From: a virus
Virus record (IMG/VR): IMGVR_UViG_3300020421_000003
Length of the DNA: 64,000 nt
Reading direction: 5' to 3' (one strand)
The position numbers were made by a program, and so were the translations under genes. Under the pieces are notes generated by a model, which searched no databases, had not been told where the DNA came from, and was given only the letters and a program-made list of their open reading frames with translations. This document shows positions 418 to 42,806 of this stretch, piece by piece; the stretch's first letter is position 1; each line of letters opens with the position of its first letter.

Positions 418-690
418 TCAACCCACACATGCCATCGGACGATATACATTAGCAGGAATCTTGTCGGTGTGGTAGTCAGTAACTGTAGCGCCTCCAGCGA
501 TACGCTCTGCCCACTCATTACGTGCTGTGAGTGATGTCACAGTGCTGTAAGACTGTTGTCCATTAGCACGAAATGTGACACACTTAACAAAACGCTTGAC
601 GACAACTTTCATGCCTTTGACTTCATCAGACTCAGCAATGAATGCCTCAGGGAAGAAATCGACGATGGTGACGTTGTTTGTGAGTTGCAT
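418..690 (-). CDS. hypothetical early protein
   Basis: Likely start MQLTNN at 690, just downstream of the promoter-like element at 710-760. Confidence 0.7.
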   Translation of the reverse strand: MQLTNNVTIVDFFPEAFIAESDEVKGMKVVVKRFVKCVTFRANGQQSYSTVTSLTARNEWAERIAGGATVTDYHTDKIPANVYRPMACVG

Positions 691-709
691 GTGATGCGTT
701 TCTTTGACT

Positions 710-760
710 CTCTTAATATACACGGTTTTGGGGTGCTGTGCCACTATAGTGGACACTTCA
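710..760 (-). promoter_or_regulatory. putative early promoter with palindromic upstream element
   Basis: Minus strand GTGTCCACTATAGTGGCAC...TGTATATTAA; perfect palindrome CCACTATAGTGG at 741-752; resembles elements at ~1450-1515 and ~5360-5427. Confidence 0.55.
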
Positions 761-973
761 CGAGGTGGTTAGTTTTGAGAGACTGATCACGAGCAAAAAC
801 GAAAGCATAATAACAACATCCCACGCTCTAGTTCTTACAAAATAGGGCACACTGATTAAATCAGCAATTAGTTGAATACTTACACCCAGTAAGATATTCA
901 CATGGAGGATGACAAAATAGGCAGTGATGACACCAACGCTGCCTAATACTCTCGCTTTACTATCAATTGGCAT
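758..973 (-). CDS. small membrane protein
   Basis: Two to three hydrophobic segments; likely start MPIDSK. Confidence 0.65.
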   Translation of the reverse strand: MPIDSKARVLGSVGVITAYFVILHVNILLGVSIQLIADLISVPYFVRTRAWDVVIMLSFLLVISLSKLTTS

Positions 974-1217
974 AAGAAACAATTTTGTAGTTGTTGAGAT
1001 CATCTTTGATGACTCGCTCGTTTGGTGATAACAAACTACGCTCTAGTCGTAGTTGCCAACCCTCCACAATGTCATTCTCAGCAATAACAGCGAAACCGAA
1101 ACATCCTGGTGTTGGCATCATAAACAAACCATGCTTTTCTGCCTCTTGAGTGTTAGCGAAACCTCGGGCAGTGATGGTCCAATCTTTACCAAAGTAGGCA
1201 CAAATAAAGTCAGTCAT
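963..1217 (-). CDS. hypothetical protein
   Basis: 84-aa ORF packed with neighbours. Confidence 0.65.
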   Translation of the reverse strand: MTDFICAYFGKDWTITARGFANTQEAEKHGLFMMPTPGCFGFAVIAENDIVEGWQLRLERSLLSPNERVIKDDLNNYKIVSYAN

Positions 1218-1236
1218 TGTTGTTAATTAAGGGTGA

Positions 1237-1431
1237 TCAGAAAGGGTTAGACCATGACTCGTACTTCTTCATGGTGATATAACCCTCACGGCAAAGTGAG
1301 TCAGTAAAGTATGACCACTCTAGACGCTTAGCAACAGCATCACCACGTAGGCGAGGATTCTGTTTTGTGTCAACCTTCCAGTTGTAACGGAATTGCTCTA
1401 GCGCCTGTGCTTTGGTGATAGTCCTGATCAT
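1237..1431 (-). CDS. hypothetical early protein
   Basis: 64-aa ORF ending WSNPF, downstream of a TATAAT promoter. Confidence 0.7.
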   Translation of the reverse strand: MIRTITKAQALEQFRYNWKVDTKQNPRLRGDAVAKRLEWSYFTDSLCREGYITMKKYESWSNPF

Positions 1432-1449
1432 CGTGTCGTTTGCTGATGA

Positions 1450-1515
1450 ATCAATTATAAGGGGTCAGGGTGCCACTGTGCCGTCAATTGATACCAGTTT
1501 GCGGATTGACACACT
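1450..1515 (-). promoter_or_regulatory. putative early promoter
   Basis: Minus strand GTGTGTCAAT-ccgc-AAACTGGTATC-aaTTGACG...TATAAT. Confidence 0.55.
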
Positions 1516-2016
1516 AGGGTAGACCGCTCCCAAACTCACACGATATCCGCTCTCAGGTCCCTCACCGCGATGGATCACACTTGAGTTGAATATAACTAAG
1601 CGACCTAGTTTCCATTCTACAGTATCATCCTCAAACACAGTATTGCCACTGTTACCATGTCCCATGTAGATAACACTCAAATAATTATCACTATCAGCAT
1701 CAGTATGATCACACCCTGATTGACCAGCAAGTTGACCATTTAAGAGCACACGATGACAATGACCGACAGTCCATTCTTTACACAAATCATTCCACATGCA
1801 GTGATTGAAATATTCAATAAACCACCATGGTTTAATGTCAATGAATTGATCATTCTCCACTAACATTGACCCGAAGAATCGTGCCTTCTCAAAATCTGCA
1901 TATGGTGAGTTATTATACCTAACAGGCATAAACTCTAGATCTTGTGATACTTTCTCCACCATCCATCGTGGAAAGTAATCATCAACTATCGTTATCTCGT
2001 CCTTGGGATGCATCAT
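1465..2016 (-). CDS. 2OG-Fe(II) oxygenase
   Basis: HTD iron motif, GNTVF, GRLVIFNSSVIH, RVS 2OG-binding motif. Confidence 0.85.
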   Translation of the reverse strand: MMHPKDEITIVDDYFPRWMVEKVSQDLEFMPVRYNNSPYADFEKARFFGSMLVENDQFIDIKPWWFIEYFNHCMWNDLCKEWTVGHCHRVLLNGQLAGQSGCDHTDADSDNYLSVIYMGHGNSGNTVFEDDTVEWKLGRLVIFNSSVIHRGEGPESGYRVSLGAVYPSVSIRKLVSIDGTVAP

Positions 2017-2191
2017 ATGCTGAGTCTAATAATTCGTTTAATTCCTTACACTTGTTGACACGCTCACTGATACTATCCTCAAGGGATTCACCATCCAATG
2101 TAGAATCGCCATAACGTGCCATCATGTCCTTAAGTTGCTCTAATGCCTTGGCAACTTTCTCTCCTTCGGATCTACCATCCTTCATCATCAT
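1982..2191 (-). CDS. hypothetical protein
   Basis: 69-aa helical ORF overlapping both neighbours. Confidence 0.6.
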   Translation of the reverse strand: MMMKDGRSEGEKVAKALEQLKDMMARYGDSTLDGESLEDSISERVNKCKELNELLDSAYDASQGRDNDS

Positions 2192-2384
2192 CTGCCTCCC
2201 TGTTAATAATCTCTCGCAATCCTTCTGTGATCATGACTTGAATCTGCTCTTCAGTTAGACCCTTAAACATACTATATCTAGGGTCATTCTCGTCCCATTG
2301 TACTTCAAATGTGCCATCATCATTCTCTGTGATGGAGAGACCATCAACGTCATTGAAATCCTTTGGGTTGTTGTTGTTTTGCAT
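2172..2384 (-). CDS. hypothetical acidic protein
   Basis: 70-aa ORF with WDENDPRY, typical small cyanophage protein. Confidence 0.65.
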   Translation of the reverse strand: MQNNNNPKDFNDVDGLSITENDDGTFEVQWDENDPRYSMFKGLTEEQIQVMITEGLREIINREADDDEGW

Positions 2385-2562
2385 CGATTACCTCAATAGT
2401 TTTAATGAATTGGTGATAATTCCACCACGCTGTTTGTGCTTCCTCCCATGAGGATACGATCTTCACACTGTTATCTGTACACCATATCTTATAACGGTGG
2501 CGGTCATAAGGGGCATCACTGGTCTGTGTGAAATAGGGTGGCAATTCGTTAGTTGATTTCAT
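2350..2562 (-). CDS. hypothetical protein
   Basis: FTQTSDAPYDRHRYK motif; likely start MKSTNE. Confidence 0.65.
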   Translation of the reverse strand: MKSTNELPPYFTQTSDAPYDRHRYKIWCTDNSVKIVSSWEEAQTAWWNYHQFIKTIEVIDAKQQQPKGFQ

Positions 2563-2752
2563 GATAGTCCCAGTCATTGTCATGTGGATAGTCTACCCAA
2601 AACCAGAAGTCAACGTTGTCGATAGCACTGAAAAACCAGCGATCAGCACGTTTGTGCTCAAGATAAACTAATGATTTAGAGTTTAGATTGTTGGCAAAGA
2701 TGGTCTTTGCCTTGTCACTCTTGGGCGTGACTTTGCATTTACCTCTTAACAT
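2549..2752 (-). CDS. hypothetical protein
   Basis: VTPKSDKAKTIFAN...FWFWV...DWD. Confidence 0.65.
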   Translation of the reverse strand: MLRGKCKVTPKSDKAKTIFANNLNSKSLVYLEHKRADRWFFSAIDNVDFWFWVDYPHDNDWDYHEIN

Positions 2753-3033
2753 AGAATGCCTGCAAGTGGACCTAGATTGAGTTGCATTGACGTATACGGG
2801 CGAGTGTCAGCAAAGTCAACTACTTTTCCTGGTTTCTTGTGATTGATTGGAGCAATGTAGGTGTGCTTTCTTGTGTTGTAAAAACCCCAGATAGATTTAA
2901 CAGGAGCACCACTGTTGTAAACGTATTCAGCACGATTGCAAATCCAAATAGATAAGACACTCTGCTTATGTTGTGTAACCTCATAATAATAACCTTTGGG
3001 TGCTTTGTGTGTGAAACTTTCAGGTAGCATCAT
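2746..3033 (-). CDS. conserved cyanophage hypothetical protein
   Basis: FTHKAPKGYYYE...SIWGFY...TRPYTSMQL. Confidence 0.7.
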   Translation of the reverse strand: MMLPESFTHKAPKGYYYEVTQHKQSVLSIWICNRAEYVYNSGAPVKSIWGFYNTRKHTYIAPINHKKPGKVVDFADTRPYTSMQLNLGPLAGILC

Positions 3034-3917
3034 AATGATAGAAACTTACGATAACAACCACGATTCTTGAGTTTGTCGTGGTGCATGTCAGCAACTGTGA
3101 CATTTAACTCAATCCTACCATCTTCACTGGTGATGATACGATCAAGACCAATACACAATAGTTGATAGAATAGAGTCAATCGACCCTCATTACTCATGTC
3201 AACTGAATTTGAATTCCAGTAAGTAATTATATCAGATGTTAGTTTAGTAGTTTTACCATCCAGGCGAGCAAGAATCTCCTCCTCTAACAACTCAAGGAAA
3301 GTTAGAGCAGATTGATTATACTTGTGTGAGCAGGCAAGTGTTGCCCATGCACCTAATACTTTCGACTGAGATGAAAACTTCTCAGTATTTGTGAGGAAAG
3401 TATCAACCAGTGCAACACCCTCACGAATGTCATCACGCCACAATTCCCACTCTCTCACAGCATTATTGATTGTGAGTTTGACACCACGACGCCGACGTAA
3501 TACGTCACCAAGAATAGCAACTTCACTGGCAAGTGCAGTCTTATCTTTACGTTGGATCTCATCACATGCTCGTCTAGGTTTAGCGAGCACAGTATTTGAG
3601 AAGCAGTTAAGGGCAACACCAGTCGCAACAATACACTCAAATGTATCATCAGGATCATGCCATTTAGCAATAGCACTGAGACGATATTGTCCCTCAGTTA
3701 GGTTACCTTGCTCATTGAATGTGATCGGTTGACCATCATACAACCAACCTGTTTCTCTGATACCAGAATAGATCTCATTGATGTGATTCTTACAGATCTT
3801 TCTGTTATCAAAATTGTGGTTGTCGATGACATATTGGGCATGATCTCTATTCAAATGATAGATGCCAACTGTCTTCTCCTTTGTGATCTCAAATGGTAGT
3901 GTGTTTGCGATTGTCAT
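3030..3917 (-). CDS. ParB/DGQHR-like N-terminal domain protein
   Basis: NR...W.YDGQPI.F...GNLTEGQYRLSAI resembles the (L/I)DGQHRL motif; ATG at 3917 overlaps the MTase stop (ATGA). Confidence 0.5.
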   Translation of the reverse strand: MTIANTLPFEITKEKTVGIYHLNRDHAQYVIDNHNFDNRKICKNHINEIYSGIRETGWLYDGQPITFNEQGNLTEGQYRLSAIAKWHDPDDTFECIVATGVALNCFSNTVLAKPRRACDEIQRKDKTALASEVAILGDVLRRRRGVKLTINNAVREWELWRDDIREGVALVDTFLTNTEKFSSQSKVLGAWATLACSHKYNQSALTFLELLEEEILARLDGKTTKLTSDIITYWNSNSVDMSNEGRLTLFYQLLCIGLDRIITSEDGRIELNVTVADMHHDKLKNRGCYRKFLSL

Positions 3918-4753: not shown

Positions 4754-5342
4754 AGTCAGTGTGGATGAATTTACGAGTCTTACGCACTTTACCATAGATT
4801 ACGGTAATGCAGTGCAGGTCATCATTGTGGACGCGAAGAGTAGAGAAACCGTTGTTATTCTTGCCAGTTTCTGTCACCTTATCATCCCAACCAGTTTCAG
4901 GATGTGTGGCAGTGGAGAGATCAACAATGCAAGCAAATACAGATGGGAAGATGTTACCCACTTGAGTTGCTTTAACACAAAAGATCTTATCAACCTTAGT
5001 CTTGCTGTGGTTGTTACCAGTAGCGAAGGATGATGTTGACTGCGTGAGTGTCAACTTATTCTCTAGTTTCTCACCACATAGAATAGCATCGTAACCAGTA
5101 GTTTCTTCGGTGATGTAGTCAACGCGGTTGAGATCTGCAGCATCCTGCAGAGCAGGGTTAAACACGTTGGCAAGCAGTTTAGTCTTGTCTACGGTAGTCT
5201 CACCGAAATACTCATCAAGGTCGTTGAAACGACCGCCTGAGAGCACGCTGAGACCCTTCTGAAGGCGTTGTGTGCTCAAGGAGATCGCTTTAGGCACGAT
5301 GCGAAACAGTTGATCAGCGAGTTGTGTGTTGGTGGTAGTCAT
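4734..5342 (-). CDS. hypothetical protein, possible PD-(D/E)xK endonuclease
   Basis: GYD-x8-ENK (TGYDAILCGEKLENKLT); overlaps the MTase start; likely start MTTTNT. Confidence 0.45.
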   Translation of the reverse strand: MTTTNTQLADQLFRIVPKAISLSTQRLQKGLSVLSGGRFNDLDEYFGETTVDKTKLLANVFNPALQDAADLNRVDYITEETTGYDAILCGEKLENKLTLTQSTSSFATGNNHSKTKVDKIFCVKATQVGNIFPSVFACIVDLSTATHPETGWDDKVTETGKNNNGFSTLRVHNDDLHCITVIYGKVRKTRKFIHTDYETLAE

Positions 5343-32586: not shown

Positions 32587-33957
32587 TTACTTAGTGGGAA
32601 TTGAGTCTCTAATCAAAAGCAATTCAGAACTACAACCTTTCTTGGTGTAGGTAAATGTATGGGCAGCAATGAGATACTTCCCGCTAAATTTCCTATCCTT
32701 GGTAACACTCTTACCCTTCTCGCGAGATCCAGGTATGATGAGTTTAATAACGTCCCCTGCACAGAGTGCAGTGTTTCCAGGCACCTTGATGGTTAACTGA
32801 ATTGCTTTCATTAAATTATATCTAGCCGCTGCGTATTCTGCAACCGCCAAAGTGTCAAAGTTTTGAGTCCCATTGTCAGGATCTCCTTGCGGTTTACCTG
32901 TACTGCCTTGCTGATGGGCAAGTGCTGGGATGATTCTCATCTTTTGTCTAGTAGGCGATGCACCCTCCCCCTTCACCTCTTCAGGCATATTGAATGGTGG
33001 TGAATCATGAAGGGTCTTAGCTCTCTTGAAGATAGCGTCAAACGCGGTTTCTCTAGCAGGATATACCGTGCCTGAGGGTGAAGACTTCTTGTCATTACTA
33101 CCGCCTGACTGTGTAGCATTACTTAGTGTAGGCATAGTCATACAAATACCAGTGGTAACTGTTTTATATGTGCCCATTCTCATATGTCTGAGATGGTTTG
33201 CCTTATCAGGATATTGAATCGATTCAATATTGTAATACCCAGGATCTCCCTCTTCTAGTTGACCCTGCTGTTTGTATGTATATGAAAATTCAAACCCCTG
33301 CTCACACAAAGAGTCAATAGACTTAAAGTTATATCCTCTCTGAGTTTCATAGAATAAGAATCCAGATTGTTTCTGAGATCCCGCACCAGATGTCACCCTA
33401 GTAACCTTGTCCGAGACATATGAGATAAGATCTACAGGTCTCCAGTTGGGAGATACAACCATAACTCTAGAGTGTTTTTCAAAATTCTCTTCCTTAAGTC
33501 TCTTGCCAGGTGCTTTCAGGTATTTCTTACAGACAAACTTGGGAATGTTTTCAACGTCCTTGGATCCACCCTCATCAATAGGACCAAATGCTTTGAAGAC
33601 TTTGAATAATTCATTGTTATACATCTCTGGTGAGCAACAGAAAAGTTTATACATCTGTCCTCTCTCAGATTTGATGATGTCACCAATCTTATAGACTTTG
33701 AATTCTAACTTCAAGATGCCTTTATCATCCGCTGATAAAGTTTTTAGATTGACTTCAACCTTCTCACCACCCTGCAAATTCAAGTTAAAGTCAACAGAGT
33801 CAATCATCGTCAACTCTAGGCGTACAAATGGTGCCTCAATAGACTCATAGTAGACAAAATTTCCCACTAGATCCTTAATGTCATACTCTTCCTCATTAGT
33901 GAGCGTAGTTAGAGAAATTTTGTTACACTTAAATTCTCTTGATGCGTTGTTTGCCAT
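32587..33957 (-). CDS. baseplate hub protein (gp27-like)
   Basis: YYESI..PF...L...DS, GFLFYET..GYNFKSIDSL, VPGNT.L.AGD.I, SGKYLI...LIRDS. Confidence 0.65.
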   Translation of the reverse strand: MANNASREFKCNKISLTTLTNEEEYDIKDLVGNFVYYESIEAPFVRLELTMIDSVDFNLNLQGGEKVEVNLKTLSADDKGILKLEFKVYKIGDIIKSERGQMYKLFCCSPEMYNNELFKVFKAFGPIDEGGSKDVENIPKFVCKKYLKAPGKRLKEENFEKHSRVMVVSPNWRPVDLISYVSDKVTRVTSGAGSQKQSGFLFYETQRGYNFKSIDSLCEQGFEFSYTYKQQGQLEEGDPGYYNIESIQYPDKANHLRHMRMGTYKTVTTGICMTMPTLSNATQSGGSNDKKSSPSGTVYPARETAFDAIFKRAKTLHDSPPFNMPEEVKGEGASPTRQKMRIIPALAHQQGSTGKPQGDPDNGTQNFDTLAVAEYAAARYNLMKAIQLTIKVPGNTALCAGDVIKLIIPGSREKGKSVTKDRKFSGKYLIAAHTFTYTKKGCSSELLLIRDSIPTK

Positions 33958-36900
33958 TACATTAAGTTACTAAGGGTGGAATTAAACTCAGTGAGGACAC
34001 CAAATTTAGGCATTAGGAAGTCATCAGCGTCATTCTTATCCTTGCCAGGGACAATAATTTCATTAGATTCACCACCCATGATAGGTGCTTCTTCTTGATT
34101 GGTAACAATGGGTTGCATTGCGGCATCACGTTGAGTAGTCAGTGACTTCAATTTATCTGCTCTACTTTCAGTCTTCTTCTGCTGACCCTCTTCTACCTTC
34201 TTACCACTGTCATTAGTGCTCGTAGTGGAATCCAAAGATTTACCCAATTCTCCGAGACCTTTACCCAAGACACCATCTTTACCAAATAGTCTCTTGATCT
34301 TCTCATCAGCAGTTTCTCCTTTTGATTCTGTCTTAGTCTTCTCTGCTTTTTTTGCTGCTTTCTCTTCTGCCTTACGTTCTTTATCGGTTACGACAGCATC
34401 CTTCATAGTCTCAGGTGCTGCAAACTCATTGTCAGCGCCAGGTTTGACAGACATCTTGGTTACAGGATCTATCTGATAACCCTCTGTTGCTGCCCTCGCT
34501 GCATTTTGATCGTTAGCACCTGCTGCTTTATGATCTTGGAATGATTTATCAAACCAGTATGCGGTATCTGCCTTGGGATGAATCTTAATATCTTTGATAT
34601 TTGCTGGTGTAGATGTCCCCTTCGTGCCTTGAGTCTTATGTCTATTGGCAATGTCAGTCTTCAGACCACCTGAATTCATTACTGCCTTAAATTCATCACT
34701 GTCTGGTCTAACACCAGCTCTCTCTTCACCCATTCCAAATAGGTTACCTGCCTTAGTCCTCTTGGACATTGACTTGATGGTTACCGATCCATCAACATAT
34801 CCATAAGTTACATAGTAGGACTTGTCATTTAAGACAACTCTACTTGCTTGGAAACTATCTTTCTTATACTTTACAGGATCAAACTTACCACCAGCAGCAA
34901 ACTTAGGCAGGAGTCCACCCTTAGAGAAAGGCATGGAGTATCCACCACGAGTTGCCTCACCTATTCTCTGATTAGTAAGACCAGGATTAGTTCTGGTTGC
35001 AGGAGTGTCAAATGGCACAACAAATGCACCACCACCTGCAAATCCCTTCATACCGACCCACTCAGTGCCATGACCGATGAATGATGTTGTAGCACCACCA
35101 TCCAGTGACACAGGGTAACCAGACTGAGGACCAGAGATCCATCCACCCATCGCTGCTTGTGGGATCTGACCACCCTGAGCGAATCCAAAGAAGTTACCAA
35201 CAGCACCCAGGAGACCACCTGCTACTGCCTTCACACCCTTGAAGATAGGATGATCTACGATTGCTTTGAATAGTTTACCAATCAGTGAGATAGTGCCATT
35301 ATCACCAGCGATTGCCTCTAGGAGTTTCTCATCCCAGGTCATTCCTGGATCTTTTTGTGCCTTTCCTTTATCCTCACCCTTCATATCTTCTTTATTGGCA
35401 GCACTACCACCAATAACAGAAGTCGATACACCAAAGATCTTAGCAAGAGGTGCGATCATTGCACCTAGCATGTTTCTAATAGGTGCAGGGAGGAATGCTC
35501 CGAATACTTTACCAATGCCACCGATGGCAGTCATAATGCCAACACCCAGTGCTTTGAATGGGAGTTGCATCAACTGACCGAAAGCTTTAGCAACCTTCGC
35601 AGTCTTGCGAAGTTGCTTTGCCATCTCATCTTGCAGGTTAAATGACCCACCAGATGCCATCTTAGGTTGGACCATCTTAGCGGTCTGGAAGGACCCTCCT
35701 GCTGCCTTACCTGCCTTACTCTTCTCCTTATCTACCTCATCTGTCTTAGGTGCAAAGAATTTCAGCACCGTAGTCAGTGCTTTGATTCCCAGGAATAATG
35801 GTGCAAACATAACCTGGACACCAATACCCAAGATCTTACTGATCATTGGGAGGTGGGGCTCGATGAAGTCAAGCACCTGAGTCATTACTGCCCCAAGGAC
35901 TTCAAAGAAACCACTCAGATTATCTTTAATAGGTGCCATCACCTGCTTAAAGACATCACCAATCATGCCGAAGAATCTACCGATTGGTTTGAAGATGGGC
36001 TCCATAAACCCACCGATTGCTTTACCTGCCTTACCACCAACGAATGCACCAGCAGCACCACCGATCATCCCACCAAGGGGACCACCGAGTTTATTACCAA
36101 TAGCTTCACCAACCATGGCACCACCAGCGGTGCCTACACCAGCACCAACTGCCTCTGCATTGCTAGCACCAGCAGCTTTCTCACCTATGAATGAACTAAC
36201 ACCTAGACCACCAGCAATCAAACCCTTACCGAGTCTGGTGCCTGCAAACTTCCTAAGCTTGGCACCAGCTTTCGCTGCCTTACCAATGTTTAGGATACCT
36301 TTGATCAGATTACTGACAACCCATCCGACAGTCTTAGCAGTCGCTAATGGATTCTTGAGGAATGCTATCCCCAGGAATATGGGAGCAGCAGACAGCAGAA
36401 ACTGTCCTAATCCTATAATCCCCTTCAGGGATATAGGATTCTCCATAAACTTCACCAGTCCATCAAACGCCGACCCTACAAGGAATGACGTTATCTTAAA
36501 GACAAACTTACCAATAGCAGCAAGTCCTTCTACAAGTTTCTGGACCTTATCTGGATTCTTAGAGATCCAATCCAATGCAGCAAATGCAATGAAGATCTTA
36601 AAGATACCACCTAAGAATCTAGCAATAGCACCAAGGAATCCACCGAAGGCACCTTTTGCTGCCTCCTTAAAATTCTGGACTACCTGAGATCCTGCCTTCT
36701 TTTCCTTCTTCTCGCTCTTATCTTCTAACTCTTCTCTCTTCTTCTTATTCTCTCTACGCTTCTCTTCAGCAGTTTTCTTCTTTTCTCTTGCTGTCTCTGC
36801 TTTATCTGCAGCAATCTCTTGCTTCTTAGTAATATTGTCGCCTCTGATCTTGGCAGAGACTCTATCCTTCATCGCTTGAGTCATTGCCTCTACTTGGAGA

Positions 36901-37106
36901 GCAATGCCATTCATCGATGCACCCAAGGAATTCATACCTGAGGTGATAGACTTAAATGCTTTATCCTGATCCTTGACAATCTTACCTAACTCATCAGCAG
37001 CAGTAAGAGGCGTAAACTTCTTGCCACCACCAGTGCCCCTATAAGATATCATCTTATAAAGTTTTGGTTTTGAGACCTTAGTTGCTGGTGCTTTTGGTGA
37101 TGCCAT
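33957..37106 (-). CDS. tape-measure-like/baseplate hub protein
   Basis: Charged helical N-terminus, GxxxG-rich amphipathic repeats, AxGG motifs; paralogous layout to 37106..40660. Confidence 0.6.
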   Translation of the reverse strand: MASPKAPATKVSKPKLYKMISYRGTGGGKKFTPLTAADELGKIVKDQDKAFKSITSGMNSLGASMNGIALQVEAMTQAMKDRVSAKIRGDNITKKQEIAADKAETAREKKKTAEEKRRENKKKREELEDKSEKKEKKAGSQVVQNFKEAAKGAFGGFLGAIARFLGGIFKIFIAFAALDWISKNPDKVQKLVEGLAAIGKFVFKITSFLVGSAFDGLVKFMENPISLKGIIGLGQFLLSAAPIFLGIAFLKNPLATAKTVGWVVSNLIKGILNIGKAAKAGAKLRKFAGTRLGKGLIAGGLGVSSFIGEKAAGASNAEAVGAGVGTAGGAMVGEAIGNKLGGPLGGMIGGAAGAFVGGKAGKAIGGFMEPIFKPIGRFFGMIGDVFKQVMAPIKDNLSGFFEVLGAVMTQVLDFIEPHLPMISKILGIGVQVMFAPLFLGIKALTTVLKFFAPKTDEVDKEKSKAGKAAGGSFQTAKMVQPKMASGGSFNLQDEMAKQLRKTAKVAKAFGQLMQLPFKALGVGIMTAIGGIGKVFGAFLPAPIRNMLGAMIAPLAKIFGVSTSVIGGSAANKEDMKGEDKGKAQKDPGMTWDEKLLEAIAGDNGTISLIGKLFKAIVDHPIFKGVKAVAGGLLGAVGNFFGFAQGGQIPQAAMGGWISGPQSGYPVSLDGGATTSFIGHGTEWVGMKGFAGGGAFVVPFDTPATRTNPGLTNQRIGEATRGGYSMPFSKGGLLPKFAAGGKFDPVKYKKDSFQASRVVLNDKSYYVTYGYVDGSVTIKSMSKRTKAGNLFGMGEERAGVRPDSDEFKAVMNSGGLKTDIANRHKTQGTKGTSTPANIKDIKIHPKADTAYWFDKSFQDHKAAGANDQNAARAATEGYQIDPVTKMSVKPGADNEFAAPETMKDAVVTDKERKAEEKAAKKAEKTKTESKGETADEKIKRLFGKDGVLGKGLGELGKSLDSTTSTNDSGKKVEEGQQKKTESRADKLKSLTTQRDAAMQPIVTNQEEAPIMGGESNEIIVPGKDKNDADDFLMPKFGVLTEFNSTLSNLM

Positions 37107-40100
37107 TACTTAGTGAGAAGTGGCGAAGGTTTGGTATACACTGCGCTAGTGCTCCCTCCTGTATTTATCGTCTGTCTAACCTTTTGTACAACCAATTTCT
37201 CCATAACAACAGGCACAAAATCTGATTCCCCATCACGTCGTGCTTTTTCTTCAATTGCTTTGAGATTCTTGACAGCTTTAGCTTGGTTAGATCCTAGTTG
37301 CTTAATCTCAGTCGTGCTAGCTGAGGTTGATGTAGCAACAGGGTTTCCAGGTTTCTCTGCAGCAGATTTAGTGGGAGTATCTTTGGGCACGTTGGTGCTG
37401 ATCTTTGTCAAGGCAGATGTTAAACCTGACTTGAATGCTTCCATCATCTCTTCAAGAGTCTTGGGTTTCGCATCAGCAGTATCACCGCCCTTATTATCGC
37501 CTCCACCGCCAGCGTTGGCATCACCGCTGCTACCAGCAGTACTGGTTTCCGTCATGCTAGACGAATCAAATTCTCCACCGAGTTGATGTGCAGCGTATGA
37601 TCTATGATCTGATGGTGTCGCATCTAGGTGGACATGGACCAGTCCACTAGGTTTGTTACCTTGTAAACCAATGATTGTATTGGGATTAACCATCTGACCC
37701 ACTGATGCTTTGATTGAATCAAAGTGGTGGAATTGCATACGGTCTTTGCCATTTTTGGCAATGACTACAGTATACCCAGAAGCATGGACAACCTTACCAT
37801 CCACACCAGCAACTACAGGTGATCCTCTATCTTTAGATTGGTCACCAAAATCTCTAACAATCACATAGTCTCTAGGGACAATAGGATGTCCACCTAGTCT
37901 AGCATTATTGTAACTATCACTATCAGGTTTGTTATGGTGGAGAGGATACTTACTGAATGGTGTTTGAGGTGTCAGATGCACATCAGGGACAGATCCATTA
38001 GTGGCAAGCAGACCGCCTGCCGCAAACCCCATAATCTCCTTTTTCTTCCGAGTCTTCTCTGCTACGTCCTCATAGACAGATATGGTGGGCTCACCCATAC
38101 CGACGCGAGCGCCACGTTTGACCCTACCACCCTTTGCCAGTTGCTCGAAAGCATCATACATCATCTGAGGTTTGATGTGCGCTACATTGACACCATCCCC
38201 AGCATAGAAACTAGCACCACCATCATCCTTTGGAATTGCAGCCCAAACTCTTGACAGTCTGAGCATTGCCTCCTTAGGATTCTCCTTCGCCATCTGCTTG
38301 GAGACCTGTGCCTGACCAGGACCGATTAGATATTCAGCAATCAGTTGCTGATTCTCTGCATTGTATATGTCCTTTTTAGGGTCAAGACCTACTGCTACTG
38401 CTCTCTGATTGAGATACTCTGGTAAGTTTTGCCATGCACCAACAGCACCTGTTGCCTTAGAAGCAACGTCAGCAATGGGCATTCCAGATGCACCAGGCAA
38501 TGTAGTGCCTGGATACATTGAATCATATCCACCGCTACCAGCTTCATACTTTAGAATTAGATTAAGTACTGGAGCCCATCCGCCTTCAATCTCTCCTACA
38601 GGAGACCCACCACCACTACTGGTGCTTCTTGGACTTTTTGGAGTTTGACCACCAGGATTCTTCTGATTTTCAATCTGCTTTGCTAATTCAGGATTGAAGA
38701 TCTTGATACCACTGAGAAGTAGTTTGTTTAACCCCTTATCAATCGCATTGTAAATATTTTCTTTATAAGTAAGATTCTTAACTGCCTCAACCTTTTTCTT
38801 TTCAGACTGACTTGCTTGGAATTGTACACTATTACTTACACCACCACCAGCAACGCCACCACCACCAGTGCTGACCTGCACACCTAGTCCACCAGCAATC
38901 TTCTGAATGTCAGGTGCTAGGACAGCTTTTACTTTATTACCAACAAATCCAAATGCACCAAATGATCCCACTATGGTCTTAAGGTAGAGACCACCTACCA
39001 TGCCCAGCATGTCAGGGTGACTACCAAACTGTAGAGCACCACCCGCTGCCATATGTACAGGACCACCTGCTGCCTTCTTATTCTCTTTGTCGAAGTCAAA
39101 CAGGTTGAATGTCAACGCATCAGCAATACCACCTGCCACAGAAGCAGGATTCATCAGACGCTTGGCATTATTGACGACAAACTGGACAGTGCCCTTGATG
39201 GCATCCATCATGCCACCAAAGATAAACCCAATGAAGTCACCAAGGACCTTGGCAGCATCCATTAGGACTTTGCCAAGTTGACCTATGAAACCAAATATCA
39301 ACCCTAAGGGCTCAGCGAGTTGCTGGAAGAGAGGTCCGATGGTCATCTTGACCACCTCAAACATCATCTTAAATGCTTTACCAATAGGTCCGAAGATAGG
39401 CTCCATGATTGGACCTAACTCTTTACCTACCCACTCACCTAAGAAACTACCGATCGCATTACCAACGATAGGTGCAAAGGGTCCTAGGAAGGGTCCCAGG
39501 AGTGCTGTGCCAGCGATACCGCCAACTAGACCACCAACACCCTGACCGACGCCAGCACCAATAGCAGAGGATGCCTTCTCACCACTCGCAAGACCTGATG
39601 CGATCCTTCCAGCGCCTCCTACGACGCTCATACCGACGTTTAACTTACCGCCGAGCTTACCAAATGCTTTGTTAGCACCAGCACCAAATCTCTTGCGTGC
39701 TGCAGATGCTTTACCTTTGAATTTAGAGAAACGACTCTCTTTACCAAATCTGTCCTCAAATGCTTTTCCAGCACCAGGATTCTTGCGGTCTGCCCTTGCG
39801 GCAGACTTCTTCATCGCTTCGTATTCTTCTTTGGAGTATATAACTCCAGTCTTCTTATCTCTATATCCGCTCTTTCTTACCTTCTGGTTAGCATCCTGCT
39901 CTGCAGACTGCTGGTTGGACATGTTGAAGATCATTCTCAGACGATTAACGTCCTTCATCAACTTCCAAGGCATGATCAGATACTGTGCTGTCCTAAGCGC
40001 AGCAAGACCACCCATCATCTGCACAACTCCGAGTATGCCTCGGAATGCACGTCTGATCGGACCTTCTTCCTTAAAATTACCAATTACATTAGTCAGTCCA

Positions 40101-40660
40101 TCAAGGAGCAGACCAACCCCAAATTTAGTAACTTTGAATGCAAACTTACCTATGGTGAATAGTATCTTGAATACCTTTACGGCACTCTCAGCATTCTTGG
40201 GGTTACTTAACCAATTTAATGCTCCAAATATAATCATATATTTGAAGACTTTGAATAGACCATTGAAAAGTCCACCAAGTGCATTTAACTTGGGTTTCTG
40301 CTTCTCAACTGCCTTTCTACCTTCCTCTTTGCCTTCTTCTACGCCCTTCTCTGCTTCGTCTTCTAATTTACCACGTTTCTTTTTTCGGAAAGTGCGTCGG
40401 AAATCCCGCATGGATGTAGTCCACTTGGTCTTATCCTTCTTATCTTTCTTCTTAATCGTCGTGACTTCTGTCTTGGAAGTGTCTGTAAGATACTCTTTCT
40501 CAAACTTTAGAAGCTCAGTAGTGTCATAAAAACTCTTGGCAATGCCATCCGTCACGCTCCCCATGCGATTGATGCCCTTACGCACCTGATCCATGTTTTT
40601 GGCGATACCTGATTTACCAGTTATCGGTTGAATTTTAACGAAACTACGGATTGCTGCCAT
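37106..40660 (-). CDS. tape-measure-like protein with lysozyme-like and M23-peptidase-like domains
   Basis: Helical and Gly-zipper N-terminal half; YE..SGGY...A.GAWQ...NQ...LSRVWAAIP; SPVVAGVDGKV...FHH...IIGLQG...HVH. Confidence 0.7.
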   Translation of the reverse strand: MAAIRSFVKIQPITGKSGIAKNMDQVRKGINRMGSVTDGIAKSFYDTTELLKFEKEYLTDTSKTEVTTIKKKDKKDKTKWTTSMRDFRRTFRKKKRGKLEDEAEKGVEEGKEEGRKAVEKQKPKLNALGGLFNGLFKVFKYMIIFGALNWLSNPKNAESAVKVFKILFTIGKFAFKVTKFGVGLLLDGLTNVIGNFKEEGPIRRAFRGILGVVQMMGGLAALRTAQYLIMPWKLMKDVNRLRMIFNMSNQQSAEQDANQKVRKSGYRDKKTGVIYSKEEYEAMKKSAARADRKNPGAGKAFEDRFGKESRFSKFKGKASAARKRFGAGANKAFGKLGGKLNVGMSVVGGAGRIASGLASGEKASSAIGAGVGQGVGGLVGGIAGTALLGPFLGPFAPIVGNAIGSFLGEWVGKELGPIMEPIFGPIGKAFKMMFEVVKMTIGPLFQQLAEPLGLIFGFIGQLGKVLMDAAKVLGDFIGFIFGGMMDAIKGTVQFVVNNAKRLMNPASVAGGIADALTFNLFDFDKENKKAAGGPVHMAAGGALQFGSHPDMLGMVGGLYLKTIVGSFGAFGFVGNKVKAVLAPDIQKIAGGLGVQVSTGGGGVAGGGVSNSVQFQASQSEKKKVEAVKNLTYKENIYNAIDKGLNKLLLSGIKIFNPELAKQIENQKNPGGQTPKSPRSTSSGGGSPVGEIEGGWAPVLNLILKYEAGSGGYDSMYPGTTLPGASGMPIADVASKATGAVGAWQNLPEYLNQRAVAVGLDPKKDIYNAENQQLIAEYLIGPGQAQVSKQMAKENPKEAMLRLSRVWAAIPKDDGGASFYAGDGVNVAHIKPQMMYDAFEQLAKGGRVKRGARVGMGEPTISVYEDVAEKTRKKKEIMGFAAGGLLATNGSVPDVHLTPQTPFSKYPLHHNKPDSDSYNNARLGGHPIVPRDYVIVRDFGDQSKDRGSPVVAGVDGKVVHASGYTVVIAKNGKDRMQFHHFDSIKASVGQMVNPNTIIGLQGNKPSGLVHVHLDATPSDHRSYAAHQLGGEFDSSSMTETSTAGSSGDANAGGGGDNKGGDTADAKPKTLEEMMEAFKSGLTSALTKISTNVPKDTPTKSAAEKPGNPVATSTSASTTEIKQLGSNQAKAVKNLKAIEEKARRDGESDFVPVVMEKLVVQKVRQTINTGGSTSAVYTKPSPLLTK

Positions 40661-40857
40661 TAGAGGGACATTCGTGACTGATCTTGTTGTTGCCTTCTTT
40701 CTTCCTCAGCAATGTGTGCGAGGAGAAGATTCACATATACATCACGCTCCCACGGTATCATATTCTCTAATTCTGTTAGCGAATACTTGTGGTGCTGCAT
40801 CAAGGCAAAGTTTGTCTTATAGTAGTTTTCAAGACTGTCATGCAGTAGGGCTATGCG
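40660..40857 (-). CDS. gp51: gp51-like baseplate hub/tail assembly frame (first ATG only at 40800; candidate -1 frameshift extension of gp26)
   Basis: Open frame RIALLHDSLENYYKTNFALMQHHKYSLTELENMIPWERDVY...SL*; stop overlaps the ATG at 40660. Confidence 0.7.
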   Translation of the reverse strand, partial: RIALLHDSLENYYKTNFALMQHHKYSLTELENMIPWERDVYVNLLLAHIAEEERRQQQDQSRMSL

Positions 40858-41555
40858 AAAAAACTCGCTAGTCCTTCAAGCACAACATCGGATACGACTT
40901 TAGTGTTGGGGTTAACAACTTCAATTGTATATGACAGTTTGGGCATGGTCTCAAAGAATTTCTGGACTTTAGCAAACTGCTCAGAATTCAAGTCTTCCAA
41001 GAATTCTAGTGCTTCTTTCTTAGTGAAGTTGTCATAGACTTCTTCCTTGTCGTAAACACTTTCAATACACCCTGCTGCCAACTCAAAGATATCCTCGATA
41101 TTGGGATCCTCCGACATATTTTGACTGATGAATACATCAATCGACGGATACTTCATAACAATACCTACATTATCATCGAGAAGCATTTTCTTCTCATGCT
41201 CTGCAGGAATAACCACCTCAACTTCATTGAGAGGGACCATCACTTCTACTTGGGTCTCATTATCATCGGGGCAGGTGATTTTGAATTCACTTGCTTCACC
41301 AACAGCAGTAGCACGAATGCGAAGGAAGATGTATTCGATCTCGAATGTTGCGAGATCTTCAACCTTACCTTTCAGGTTGGTGCAGTTTCTGATGATGGTC
41401 TTAACTGCCTTGATCATCTGCTTGTCGTCTTGCGACTCCATAGCGAGATACAGCAGTTTTTCCTCCTTAACGAGGAAAGGTCTATATGTGATTTTAGTGC
41501 CAGTAATAGGCAGTGTCAAATCATACTCGGGGATAGCGAGCTTAGGTAAAGGCAT
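40851..41555 (-). CDS. gp26: baseplate hub assembly protein gp26-like
   Basis: MPLPKL..P.Y.L.LP...YRPFLVKEEKLL...FF.TMPKL...LEGLASFF. Confidence 0.85.
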   Translation of the reverse strand: MPLPKLAIPEYDLTLPITGTKITYRPFLVKEEKLLYLAMESQDDKQMIKAVKTIIRNCTNLKGKVEDLATFEIEYIFLRIRATAVGEASEFKITCPDDNETQVEVMVPLNEVEVVIPAEHEKKMLLDDNVGIVMKYPSIDVFISQNMSEDPNIEDIFELAAGCIESVYDKEEVYDNFTKKEALEFLEDLNSEQFAKVQKFFETMPKLSYTIEVVNPNTKVVSDVVLEGLASFFA

Positions 41556-41580: not shown

Positions 41581-42336
41581 TTAGGTGCCAAAGAAGGATG
41601 AATCTATCTGATCGCTGGCAAATCCTAAACGCTCAAATATCTTATCAAAATTACGAATGACCTTATCACTTGCTTCAGGTTTGAAGGACAATACATCCTC
41701 TGCCACCGTGTCAAATCTAAATCTTTCGTATTTGAAGTCAACATCGATCTTCAGTAGATCTGCTGGTCCATTATTAAGAGTCATTGCTGAGATGTCAAAT
41801 GGATATGCACCATACATCTGCCAGACTGCAGTAGATCTATTCATTCTCTGCTCAAACTGAATTGGACGCCCAACACCATTATTGGCAGAACCCCTGTATA
41901 CAACGTTAGCAGCATTCTCCCATTTCAGGATCTGAATGCTTGATGTATATTCATCATAGAATGTAACTCTGTTTTCAGCGTCATTAGCAGTCATATTCAT
42001 CCAATTCTCAAAGAATTGACGATGATACATGTCCTTTGTCATAATAAAGGACATTCGGACTTCTTGCTTCTGCTGACCATATGCATAGTCATATGGCATA
42101 CCAACAGTCTTGACTGATTGTGTCTTAATCCTTCTAGCAGGGATAGTTACACTGTCAGCAAAATAGTTGATAGATTCGTAATGCTCTTTGAAACCAGGAG
42201 CTTTGCCAGGGACGGCATACATCATCGCGGGGAGAGTAATCTCCACCGAGAATAGATTCGACTTTGCAATATCTTTCTCGCCACTACTGACTAGATCAGA
42301 AAATCGGAGAAAACTATTGGGATTTCTGTAACTCAT
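41581..42336 (-). CDS. tail tube-like protein (gp19/gp54-like)
   Basis: N.F.V.I, SVTIP.R, FFENW, YGAYP..I...L, V.F.Y. Confidence 0.65.
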   Translation of the reverse strand: MSYRNPNSFLRFSDLVSSGEKDIAKSNLFSVEITLPAMMYAVPGKAPGFKEHYESINYFADSVTIPARRIKTQSVKTVGMPYDYAYGQQKQEVRMSFIMTKDMYHRQFFENWMNMTANDAENRVTFYDEYTSSIQILKWENAANVVYRGSANNGVGRPIQFEQRMNRSTAVWQMYGAYPFDISAMTLNNGPADLLKIDVDFKYERFRFDTVAEDVLSFKPEASDKVIRNFDKIFERLGFASDQIDSSFFGT

Positions 42337-42806
42337 TAAACTCGACTCCAGATGTGACTGCTAGGGACTTCGATCCAGCGACCTGCTGCATTAAATAAGA
42401 ATTGCTCGATAGGCAATGGAGTCATATCCTGCAGATCAATCGGTTTAACAGTGTAAATGTTGGTAGCATTTGACATAAAGTATTTATGATAGCAACGGGC
42501 AGGAAATGCGGGACTGCCCATAGACCACTGTGCAGCGATTGTCTTTCGTGCTGTTGGTTGTAGATAATGTAAGTTACCACCTGAGAATTGCATGTTACGT
42601 TTATCCAGATCGGATATTTGCACCATGGGGAATCTGTCATAAAATGACAGTTTCTCAGTTGATGCAGAGTATGCAAAGAAGATGATGTCACCAACTGCAA
42701 AGTTGCCCTCATAGGGATCCATACCATATTGCAGTTGAGAGCGATACCACTCTTTAGATTGCTTCTTGCCTTCTGCAAGATCTTTAACATCAGTGAAGAT
42801 GCTCAT
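42336..42806 (-). CDS. gp2: DNA end protector protein
   Basis: WY..., FFAY.A..EKL.FYDRFP.V, GGNLHYL.P; adjacent to gp4. Confidence 0.75.
   Translation of the reverse strand: MSIFTDVKDLAEGKKQSKEWYRSQLQYGMDPYEGNFAVGDIIFFAYSASTEKLSFYDRFPMVQISDLDKRNMQFSGGNLHYLQPTARKTIAAQWSMGSPAFPARCYHKYFMSNATNIYTVKPIDLQDMTPLPIEQFLFNAAGRWIEVPSSHIWSRV

What the first reader, a model, noticed from the sequence alone, without database searches (positions are those of the whole stretch)
40660..40870. Candidate -1 ribosomal frameshift fusing gp26 to the gp51-like frame (lambda G/GT-like chaperone arrangement in a T4-like phage)
Seen: gp26 ends AGT TTT TTC GCA TAG, containing the X XXY YYZ heptamer T TTT TTC (40857-40863) one codon before its stop. 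The -1 frame is open from that point for 65 codons (RIALLHDSLENYYKTNFALMQHHKYSLTELENMIPWERDVY...) and its stop overlaps the ATG of the tape-measure-like gene. The gp51-like stretch (SLENYYKTNFAL) begins upstream of the first in-frame ATG (40800). Known: many long-tailed phages make tail assembly chaperones G and GT by frameshifting just upstream of the tape measure gene. Inference: this phage makes a 234-aa and a ~298-aa product, and the conserved 'FF' end of gp26 may mark a slip site rather than a protein motif.
Basis: partly seen in the sequence, partly recalled or inferred. Interest (0 to 1): 0.8.

Follow-up and report, generated by a model that had tools for sequence, protein, structure and literature searches.

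The report
Frameshift joining cyanophage gp26 and gp51
One tail-assembly gene of this T4-like cyanophage very probably makes a short and a long protein because some ribosomes slip back one base on a strictly conserved TTTTTTC, which is real but was already described for T4-like phages in 2022.

Summary
All genes lie on the minus strand. gp26 (40851-41555, 234 aa) ends AGT TTT TTC GCA TAG. The heptamer T TTT TTC is at 40857-40863. The -1 frame is open from there to 40660, and its stop overlaps the ATG of the next gene.

- All 145 distinct gp26-gp51 junctions, from 168 loci, keep an in-phase T TTT TTN with the gp51-like frame at -1.
- 47 of the 145, this window included, have no ATG/GTG/TTG before the conserved part of the tail.
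- T4 gp51 (249 aa) is a gp26-family domain plus this tail in one frame. A profile of five such proteins aligns across the slip site in 140 of 145 conceptual fusions.
- T4 has two gp26-family genes. P-TIM40, S-H9-1 and phiM9 have one each.
- Phages with two genes lack the heptamer.

The predicted products are 234 aa and 298 aa. No protein evidence was available. Transcriptional slippage is not excluded.

This is not new. Two papers cite Vladimirov, Gautam and Davidson (Virology 2022) for exactly this; I could not read that paper itself. This scan has also noted it before on other DNA (360 notes, at least 312 genomes). Public annotations still truncate or omit the gene.

The parts
40851..41555 (-). 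gp26 frame, the short product (TAC-N, 234 aa), including its TAG stop at 40851-40853
   Evidence: ORF list. Pfam PF12322 T4_baseplate, E 3e-69, residues 9-234 against profile 2-219 of 219. phrog_150, E 2.8e-75.
40857..40863 (-). Slippery heptamer T TTT TTC in X XXY YYZ phase with gp26
   Evidence: Sequence. An in-phase T TTT TTN is present in 145 of 145 distinct junctions. Positions 0-5 have zero entropy in 144 of 144.
40872..40877 (-). Shine-Dalgarno-like GAAGGA (Glu-Gly codons), 9-10 nt upstream of the heptamer; a possible stimulator
   Evidence: 108 of 145 junctions have a 5-mer Shine-Dalgarno-like motif at -20..-6, against 4.3% of background windows. The Glu codon there is GAG 85 to GAA 32, against 31% GAG elsewhere in these genes. 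A stimulatory role is inferred, not shown. The window itself has the weaker GAA form.
40660..40857 (-). -1 frame extension: 65 codons plus TAA. This is the 'gp51-like' tail that becomes the C-terminus of the long product (TAC-NC, 298 aa)
   Evidence: Open frame. phrog_634, E 1.2e-31, and phrog_150 positions 229-276 of 282. BLASTP against T4 gp51 residues 198-244, E 9e-6. HMM of five Straboviridae gp51 against the conceptual fusion: one domain, HMM positions 15-244 of 251, E 4.9e-15.
40876..40878 (-). TGA that closes the -1 frame upstream of the heptamer. No start codon lies between it and the slip site.
   Evidence: Stop-to-stop ORF 40660..40875; sequence.
37106..40660 (-). Downstream 1184-aa gene, tape-measure-like, with an M23 peptidase domain. 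Its ATG overlaps the TAA of the -1 frame.
   Evidence: ORF. PF01551, E 1.4e-6. phrog_90 and others. No BLASTP similarity to T4 gp29. No NCBIfam hit. ESM Atlas neighbours include T4_Tape_measure and TMP clusters at 0.83-0.86, which are leads only.
41581..42336 (-). Upstream tube-family gene (gp54-like baseplate-tube initiator, 251 aa)
   Evidence: PF23849 Phage_TTP_2, E 6.7e-9. phrog_45, E 8.6e-41, the same phrog as T4 gp54.

Best explanation
gp26 and the small 'gp51' frame are one gene with two products. Most ribosomes read gp26 to its TAG and release a 234-aa protein, the short form (TAC-N).

A fraction slips back one base. This happens when two tRNA-Phe sit on UUU UUC in the P and A sites of U UUU UUC and re-pair with UUU UUU. 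Those ribosomes then read 65 further codons in the -1 frame and make a 298-aa protein, the long form (TAC-NC).

The long form is the ortholog of T4 gp51, and the short form corresponds to T4 gp26. T4 and its close relatives encode the pair as two paralogous genes instead. Both T4 proteins are listed as hub assembly chaperones that act before tail-tube growth.

Shown here: the sequence anatomy, its conservation, and the homology across the junction. Inferred: that slipping happens, that it is ribosomal, its efficiency, and the chaperone role in this phage.
For: - Anatomy.
- In-phase T TTT TTN in 145 of 145 distinct junctions from 168 loci: C 94, T 48, G 3. The preceding codon varies (GAT 51, AGT 45, TCT 36, GCT 9, AAT 4) but always ends in T. 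Background third-position T is 39% and the TTT share of Phe codons is 63%.
- The set spans cyanophages, Methylophilales, Pseudomonas, Vibrio and Sinorhizobium phages.
- The gp51-like frame is always -1 and open from the slip. Median tail is 62 aa; the only tail under 50 aa belongs to a locus that is cut short.
- 47 of 145 have no ATG/GTG/TTG before codon +8. S-H9-1 has no annotated gp51 at all. P-TIM40, Melnitz and Astolliot are annotated from an internal ATG.
- T4 gp51 matches PF12322 over residues 1-201 and phrog_150 over 13-280 of 282. T4 gp26 stops at 235 of 282.
- A Straboviridae gp51 HMM spans the junction in one domain in 140 of 145 fusions.
- PF12322 copies: one each in P-TIM40, S-H9-1, phiM9 and G001, and two in T4.
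- Five two-gene phages have no T6 at the equivalent place.
- Phage P2 uses TTTTTTG for its E/E+E' tail proteins, without downstream structure (PMC3091744, passage).
- Citing passages state that polyT -1 signals are known in the TAC-N genes of T4-like phages (PMC12846349), and that some T4-like phages carry a short and a fused long gene instead (PMC10274946).
Against: - There is no protein evidence of any kind. No junction peptide, reporter assay or ribosome profiling was available.
- No conserved downstream RNA structure was found. RNAalifold on 144 anchored junctions and on four subgroups gave essentially nothing, and the window's own downstream fold has z about 0.
- 98 of 145 junctions do have a canonical start codon before codon +8 in the -1 frame (72 have an ATG at +1 to +6). 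Separate translation of the tail is therefore possible in many lineages. The window has CTG where close relatives have ATG.
- The window's own genome is not held, so a second gp26-family gene elsewhere in it is not excluded.
Confidence: 0.8

Rival explanations
1. The fusion is made, but by transcriptional slippage. RNA polymerase adds one U on the T-run, so a minority of mRNAs carry the two frames in phase.
For: The signal is a homopolymer run: T6 in 94 junctions and longer in the 48 with Z = T, for example GAT TTT TTT TAA. Conservation of the run cannot tell the two mechanisms apart. The title of Vladimirov et al. [quoted passage not shown] By the passage in PMC10274946, that phrase refers to the two-gene solution.
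Against: - In 94 of 145 junctions the run is only six T. As I recall, that is short for efficient bacterial slippage.
- The base before the run is never T, and the run is not extended where Z = C.
- The run always starts at the third base of a codon, which is the X XXY YYZ phase.
- RNA-library contigs of four runs show no inserted or deleted letter. One contig bridges 40347-41595. Contigs drop rare variants, so this is weak evidence.
Confidence: 0.08
2. No fusion is made. The tail is a separate small protein of about 47-65 aa. It would start at a non-canonical codon (CTG or ATA), at the internal TTG/ATG at 40803/40800, or by re-initiation after the gp26 stop, and it would act together with gp26 without being joined to it.
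For: This is how public records annotate it. 72 of 145 junctions have an ATG 1-6 codons after the slip, often overlapping the stop as TAATG or TGATG. The window has CTG at the position where relatives have ATG.
Against: - It does not explain an invariant in-phase heptamer with two frozen synonymous sites.
- It does not explain a constant -1 phase with never a spacer.
- 47 of 145 junctions have no canonical start before the conserved residues.
- The only full-length homologs carry the tail joined to a gp26-family domain.
- The heptamer is lost exactly where a fused gene exists.

Separate initiation may still occur alongside slipping.
Confidence: 0.07
3. The heptamer is a chance T-run in an AT-rich phage, with no function.
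For: TTTTTTC is not enriched in the window: 7 found against 9.8 expected.
Against: Identical position and phase in 145 of 145 distinct junctions, at gp26 identities down to about 25-30%.
Confidence: 0.01

Closest known systems
[quoted passage not shown]
   Same: By those passages, the TAC-N genes of T4-like phages carry polyT -1 frameshift signals. Some T4-like phages instead carry one short gene and one longer fused gene. That is what searches show for this locus and for T4 gp26/gp51.
   Different: I could not read the paper. I therefore cannot say whether cyanophages, the 145-junction census, the upstream Shine-Dalgarno-like bias or the frequent in-frame ATG are covered there.
Phage T4 gp26 (208 aa) and gp51 (249 aa), hub assembly chaperones (Leiman et al. 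2010, PMC3004832, Table 2 and passages)
   Same: Same Pfam family, PF12322. T4 gp51 carries the same C-terminal tail, in frame. gp51 is needed for hub assembly but is absent from the finished particle.
   Different: In T4 these are two separate, divergently transcribed genes with no slippery heptamer. Here there is one gene with a -1 overlap.
Lambda gpG/gpGT and P2 E/E+E' tail assembly chaperones (Xu, Hendrix, Duda 2004, as cited; P2 details from PMC3091744, passage)
   Same: There is a short and a long product from one start. [quoted passage not shown] The gene lies after a tube-family gene and before a long tape-measure-like gene. P2 slips on TTTTTTG without a downstream hairpin; phiM9 has the same heptamer here.
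   Different: No sequence match to any Pfam tail-assembly-chaperone family at E up to 0.1. gp26 is larger (234 aa against 91 aa for P2 E). The downstream gene is not shown to be a tape measure.
E. coli dnaX -1 frameshift with an upstream Shine-Dalgarno-like stimulator (recalled, no call)
   Same: A Shine-Dalgarno-like GAGG lies about 10 nt upstream of the heptamer in 85 of 145 junctions, with a codon bias towards GAG.
   Different: The motif also encodes conserved Glu-Gly, and the window has the weaker GAA form. No downstream hairpin was found. A stimulatory role is untested.

Membership tests
-1 programmed ribosomal frameshift site (X XXY YYZ type) | Slippery heptamer in the correct phase of the upstream frame | tested here: met
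   T TTT TTC at 40863..40857 in gp26 phase.
-1 programmed ribosomal frameshift site (X XXY YYZ type) | -1 frame open from the site and encoding a conserved protein segment | tested here: met
   65 codons are open. phrog_634, E 1.2e-31. The tail HMM hits 141 of 145 junctions.
-1 programmed ribosomal frameshift site (X XXY YYZ type) | Heptamer and phase conserved among diverged homologs, including synonymous sites | tested here: met
   145 of 145 distinct junctions. Zero entropy at positions 0-5 against 1.0-1.9 bits at the other third positions.
-1 programmed ribosomal frameshift site (X XXY YYZ type) | Homologs that encode the fused product in one frame | tested here: met
   T4 gp51 and four other Straboviridae gp51 proteins. 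The HMM spans the junction in 140 of 145 fusions.
-1 programmed ribosomal frameshift site (X XXY YYZ type) | Stimulatory element: downstream structure or upstream Shine-Dalgarno-like motif. This is common but not obligatory. | tested here: inconclusive
   No conserved downstream fold. The upstream Shine-Dalgarno-like motif is enriched but overlaps conserved Glu-Gly codons. A 0-frame stop lies 0-1 codons after the heptamer in 143 of 145.
-1 programmed ribosomal frameshift site (X XXY YYZ type) | Two proteins with a junction peptide shown experimentally | not testable with these tools
   No proteome or reporter data. The RNA contigs say nothing about translation.
T4 gp26/gp51 family (PF12322), the tail assembly chaperones of T4-like phages | PF12322 domain in the short product | tested here: met
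   E 3e-69, full profile coverage.
T4 gp26/gp51 family (PF12322), the tail assembly chaperones of T4-like phages | The long form carries the gp51-type C-terminal tail | tested here: met
   BLASTP, E 9e-6, against T4 gp51 residues 198-244. phrog_150 positions 229-276. HMM result.
T4 gp26/gp51 family (PF12322), the tail assembly chaperones of T4-like phages | One family gene per genome where the frameshift is used, two where it is not | tested here: inconclusive
   Met in the relatives P-TIM40, S-H9-1 and phiM9 (one each) and in T4 (two). The window's own genome is not held, and its nearest record, G001, is a 45-kb fragment.
Lambda gpG/gpGT-type tail assembly chaperone | Gene lies between a tube protein gene and the tape measure gene | tested here: inconclusive
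   The upstream gene is tube-family (phrog_45). The downstream 1184-aa gene is tape-measure-like by place, size and Atlas leads only.
Lambda gpG/gpGT-type tail assembly chaperone | Sequence membership in a known Pfam tail-assembly-chaperone family | tested here: not met
   The Pfam scan at E up to 0.1 returned only PF12322 for gp26, and only a sub-threshold chance hit (PF09556, RE_HaeIII, E 0.03) for the tail.
Lambda gpG/gpGT-type tail assembly chaperone | Fold like solved chaperones; binding of the tape measure and tube proteins | not testable with these tools
No PDB relative by sequence.

The most novel reading that the evidence does not exclude
The locus may be a three-product switch rather than a two-product one. 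About half of the lineages (72 of 145 junctions) keep an ATG 1-6 codons after the slip site, often as TAATG or TGATG. Those lineages could make a free tail peptide of about 60 aa by termination-reinitiation, in addition to the short and the fused long form. Lineages like this window, S-H9-1 and P-TIM40 have lost that ATG and depend on slipping alone. The upstream GAGG, 10 nt from the heptamer and carrying a GAG codon bias, would set the slip rate. I could not check whether Vladimirov et al. 2022 already treats this.
Probability: 0.2. Interest if true: 0.45.

Novelty: already known. Interest (0 to 1): 0.27.

Why it matters
The finding removes an apparent exception. T4-like phages do follow the short-plus-long chaperone rule of long-tailed phages, either by slipping on one gene or by keeping two genes.

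The practical point is annotation. Public records still name the tail frame 'baseplate hub assembly catalyst' as a separate gene. They start it at an internal ATG, which cuts off conserved residues (P-TIM40, Melnitz, Astolliot), or they omit it altogether (S-H9-1). Because the signal was invariant in every junction examined, a simple annotation rule could correct this family.

Tried and rejected
**Downstream RNA stimulator.** RNAalifold on 144 gapless anchored junctions and on four subgroups found no shared structure. The window's downstream 53-113 nt fold no better than shuffles (z 0 to +1.3). The shuffles were mononucleotide shuffles of my own, not dinucleotide-preserving. In the Melnitz-like group a weak GGAGGG/CCUCUC pairing flanks the slip site (-1.3 kcal). 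I do not rely on it.

**Structure comparison with lambda-type chaperones.** The PDB sequence search found nothing for gp26 or for T4 gp51.

**Tape-measure identity of the 1184-aa gene.**
- BLASTP against T4 gp29 found nothing.
- NCBIfam found nothing.
- Pfam found only M23.
- Atlas neighbours score below 0.9 and are leads only.

**Order of events (duplication or fusion).** In a tree of 51 gp26-family domains (41 of the 145 single-gene forms, taken as every fourth plus the named ones, and 10 Straboviridae proteins), the singles, the gp51 group and the gp26 group meet at one node. Several branches are long. The tree therefore cannot give a direction.

**RNA evidence.** All 23 runs offered were kept as contigs. 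The four I laid show cover and no indel, but they cannot show rare slippage or translation.

**Own genome.** It is not held.

**Vibrio gp26 as a query.** It found no IMG/VR relatives.

**Literature.** The first seven that ran found no paper on this frameshift. The prior paper surfaced only through the reference list of PMC12846349.
Full report
**What is there.** The genes in this part of the window run on the minus strand, in this order:
- a DNA end protector, gp2-like (42336-42806, phrog_429);
- a tube-family gene like T4 gp54 (41581-42336; phrog_45);
- gp26 (40851-41555, 234 aa; Pfam PF12322, E 3e-69);
- a short frame annotated elsewhere as gp51;
- a 1184-aa gene with an M23 peptidase domain (37106-40660).

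gp26 ends AGT TTT TTC GCA TAG. T TTT TTC lies at 40863..40857, in X XXY YYZ phase. The -1 frame is closed by a TGA at 40876-40878 and then stays open to the TAA at 40660-40662. That TAA overlaps the next gene's ATG. The first TTG and ATG in the -1 frame are at 40803 and 40800, which are 18 and 19 codons after the slip. The heptamer alone is not unusual in this window: 7 copies against 9.8 expected.

**The tail belongs to a longer protein.**
- The -1 frame peptide matches phrog_634 ('baseplate hub assembly catalyst', E 1.2e-31). It also matches the last part of phrog_150, the gp26 family, at profile positions 229-276 of 282.
- In T4, genes 26 and 51 are separate and divergent.
- T4 gp51 (249 aa) matches PF12322 over residues 1-201 (E 3.9e-52) and phrog_150 over 13-280 of 282. 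T4 gp26 (208 aa) stops at 235 of 282.
- BLASTP aligns T4 gp51 residues 198-244 with residues 4-51 of the -1 peptide (E 9e-6). The alignment runs straight through the place of the slip.
- I built an HMM from five Straboviridae gp51 proteins (T4, Octan, 44RR2.8t, RB16, KFS-EC). It matches the conceptual -1 product of the window in one domain (HMM 15-244 of 251, E 4.9e-15). It spans the junction by at least 30 residues on each side in 140 of 145 distinct junctions.

So the cyanophage 'gp51' is only the tail of the real gp51. In these phages the full equivalent can be made only by joining it to gp26.

**Census.** I collected 80 IMG/VR loci with the window's gp26 (51-97% identity), 86 more with the gp26 proteins of phiM9 and Astolliot, and five named phages. 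Of the 172 loci, the window included, 4 run off their contig. The remaining 168 give 145 distinct junctions.
- All 145 carry an in-phase T TTT TTN: C 94, T 48, G 3.
- The 0-frame stop follows after 0 codons (48), 1 codon (95) or 8 codons (2).
- The preceding codon is GAT, AGT, TCT, GCT or AAT. That is four different amino acids, and the codon always ends in T.
- The gp51-like frame is always -1.
- Anchored on the heptamer, positions 0-5 have zero entropy in 144 of 144 junctions, while the other third-codon positions upstream carry 1.0-1.9 bits. The background is 39% T at third positions and 63% TTT among Phe codons.
- The set includes phages of Methylophilales, Pseudomonas, Vibrio and Sinorhizobium.
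- A tblastn search with the tail found 551 phage records.

**Start codons.**
- 47 of 145 junctions have no ATG, GTG or TTG in the -1 frame before codon +8, at or after the start of the conserved residues. The window is one of these.
- 72 have an ATG at +1 to +6.
- RefSeq omits gp51 in S-H9-1. The records start it at an internal ATG in P-TIM40, Melnitz and Astolliot.
- The window has CTG where close relatives such as L003 have ATG.

Separate initiation therefore cannot be the general route, though it may coexist with slipping.

**Natural controls.**
- Complete genomes of the frameshift type (P-TIM40, S-H9-1, phiM9) have one PF12322 gene. T4 has two.
- Contiguous gp51 occurs in 1375 records, almost all from phages of enterobacteria, Acinetobacter and Aeromonas.
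- In five such phages the junction-equivalent of gp51 reads VFK, IFK, LFE, LYK or LFK, without a T6 run. The FF of T4 gp26 is TTC TTT.

The first Phe is thus a protein feature. The T6 run is kept only where slipping is needed.

**Stimulators and mechanism.** I found no conserved downstream structure. P2 also lacks one at its TTTTTTG site (PMC3091744, passage). Upstream, 108 of 145 junctions have a Shine-Dalgarno-like 5-mer at -20..-6, against 4.3% of background windows. The Glu codon in it is GAG 85 to GAA 32, against 31% GAG elsewhere. This resembles dnaX as I recall it, but the motif also encodes conserved Glu-Gly, and the window has the GAA form. A 0-frame stop follows within one codon in 143 of 145 junctions.

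Transcriptional slippage on the T-run would give the same protein and is not excluded. Against it stand the short T6 run in 94 junctions, the fixed codon phase, and the absence of any indel in RNA-library contigs. The last is weak evidence, because contigs drop rare variants.

**The G/GT comparison.** The layout matches: a tube-family gene, a short frame with a slip at its 3' end, a tail frame, and then a very long gene. Sequence membership in a lambda-type chaperone family was tested and not met. The downstream gene is not shown to be a tape measure. The fold could not be tested. GenBank record MT409116 (phage Octan) names both gp26 and gp51 'tape measure protein assembly chaperone'. Leiman et al. 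2010 list both as hub assembly chaperones and say that gp51 is absent from the particle (PMC3004832, Table 2 and passages).

**Prior work.** My first seven literature searches found nothing on this. [quoted passage not shown] It cites Vladimirov, Gautam and Davidson, Virology 2022, 566:9-15. PMC10274946 summarises the same paper as showing that some T4-like phages carry one short gene and one longer fused gene instead of frameshifting. The paper itself is not held, so I know it only from these passages and from its title.

This scan has also flagged the same thing before on other DNA: 360 notes in at least 312 genomes. At least one earlier follow-up (e1-5705917) said that no published report was found. 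The citation above corrects that.

**Verdict.** What remains open is direct protein evidence, ribosomal against transcriptional slipping, the role of the upstream GAGG, and whether a free tail peptide is also made where an ATG is present.

Noticed in passing
window 33957-40660 (-): Two very long genes follow in tandem (1184 aa and 1049 aa), joined stop-to-start. The first has an M23 peptidase domain. Neither matches T4 gp29 or any NCBIfam model. Which of them, if either, is the tape measure is open.
   Followed up: partly
L081 (S-H9-1), L173 (P-TIM40), L082 (Melnitz), L083 (Astolliot): Public annotation of the tail frame is inconsistent. It is missing in S-H9-1, and it is started at an internal ATG that cuts off conserved residues in the other three.
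   Followed up: yes
L131, L132, L134: A variant group has T TTT TTT eight codons before the gp26 stop, instead of 0-1 codons. The two frames therefore overlap for longer.
   Followed up: partly
L092-L125 (Melnitz-like IMG/VR loci): GGAGGG upstream and CCUCUC downstream of the slip site could pair and put the heptamer in a loop. The RNAalifold energy is only -1.3 kcal.
   Followed up: no
L176 (RB16) 610-3187: RB16 has genes 54, 51, 26 and 25 in tandem on one strand, with the long form before the short one. T4, Octan, 44RR2.8t and KFS-EC have 26 and 51 divergent.
   Followed up: no
L086 (T4) 4803-5090: The T4 record annotates an internal product 26' (the C-terminal 95 aa of gp26). T4 therefore also makes more than one protein from this gene family, by internal initiation.
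   Followed up: no
L174 (Acinetobacter phage Octan, MT409116): Both gp26 and gp51 are annotated 'tape measure protein assembly chaperone'. The chaperone reading has therefore reached at least one GenBank record.
   Followed up: no
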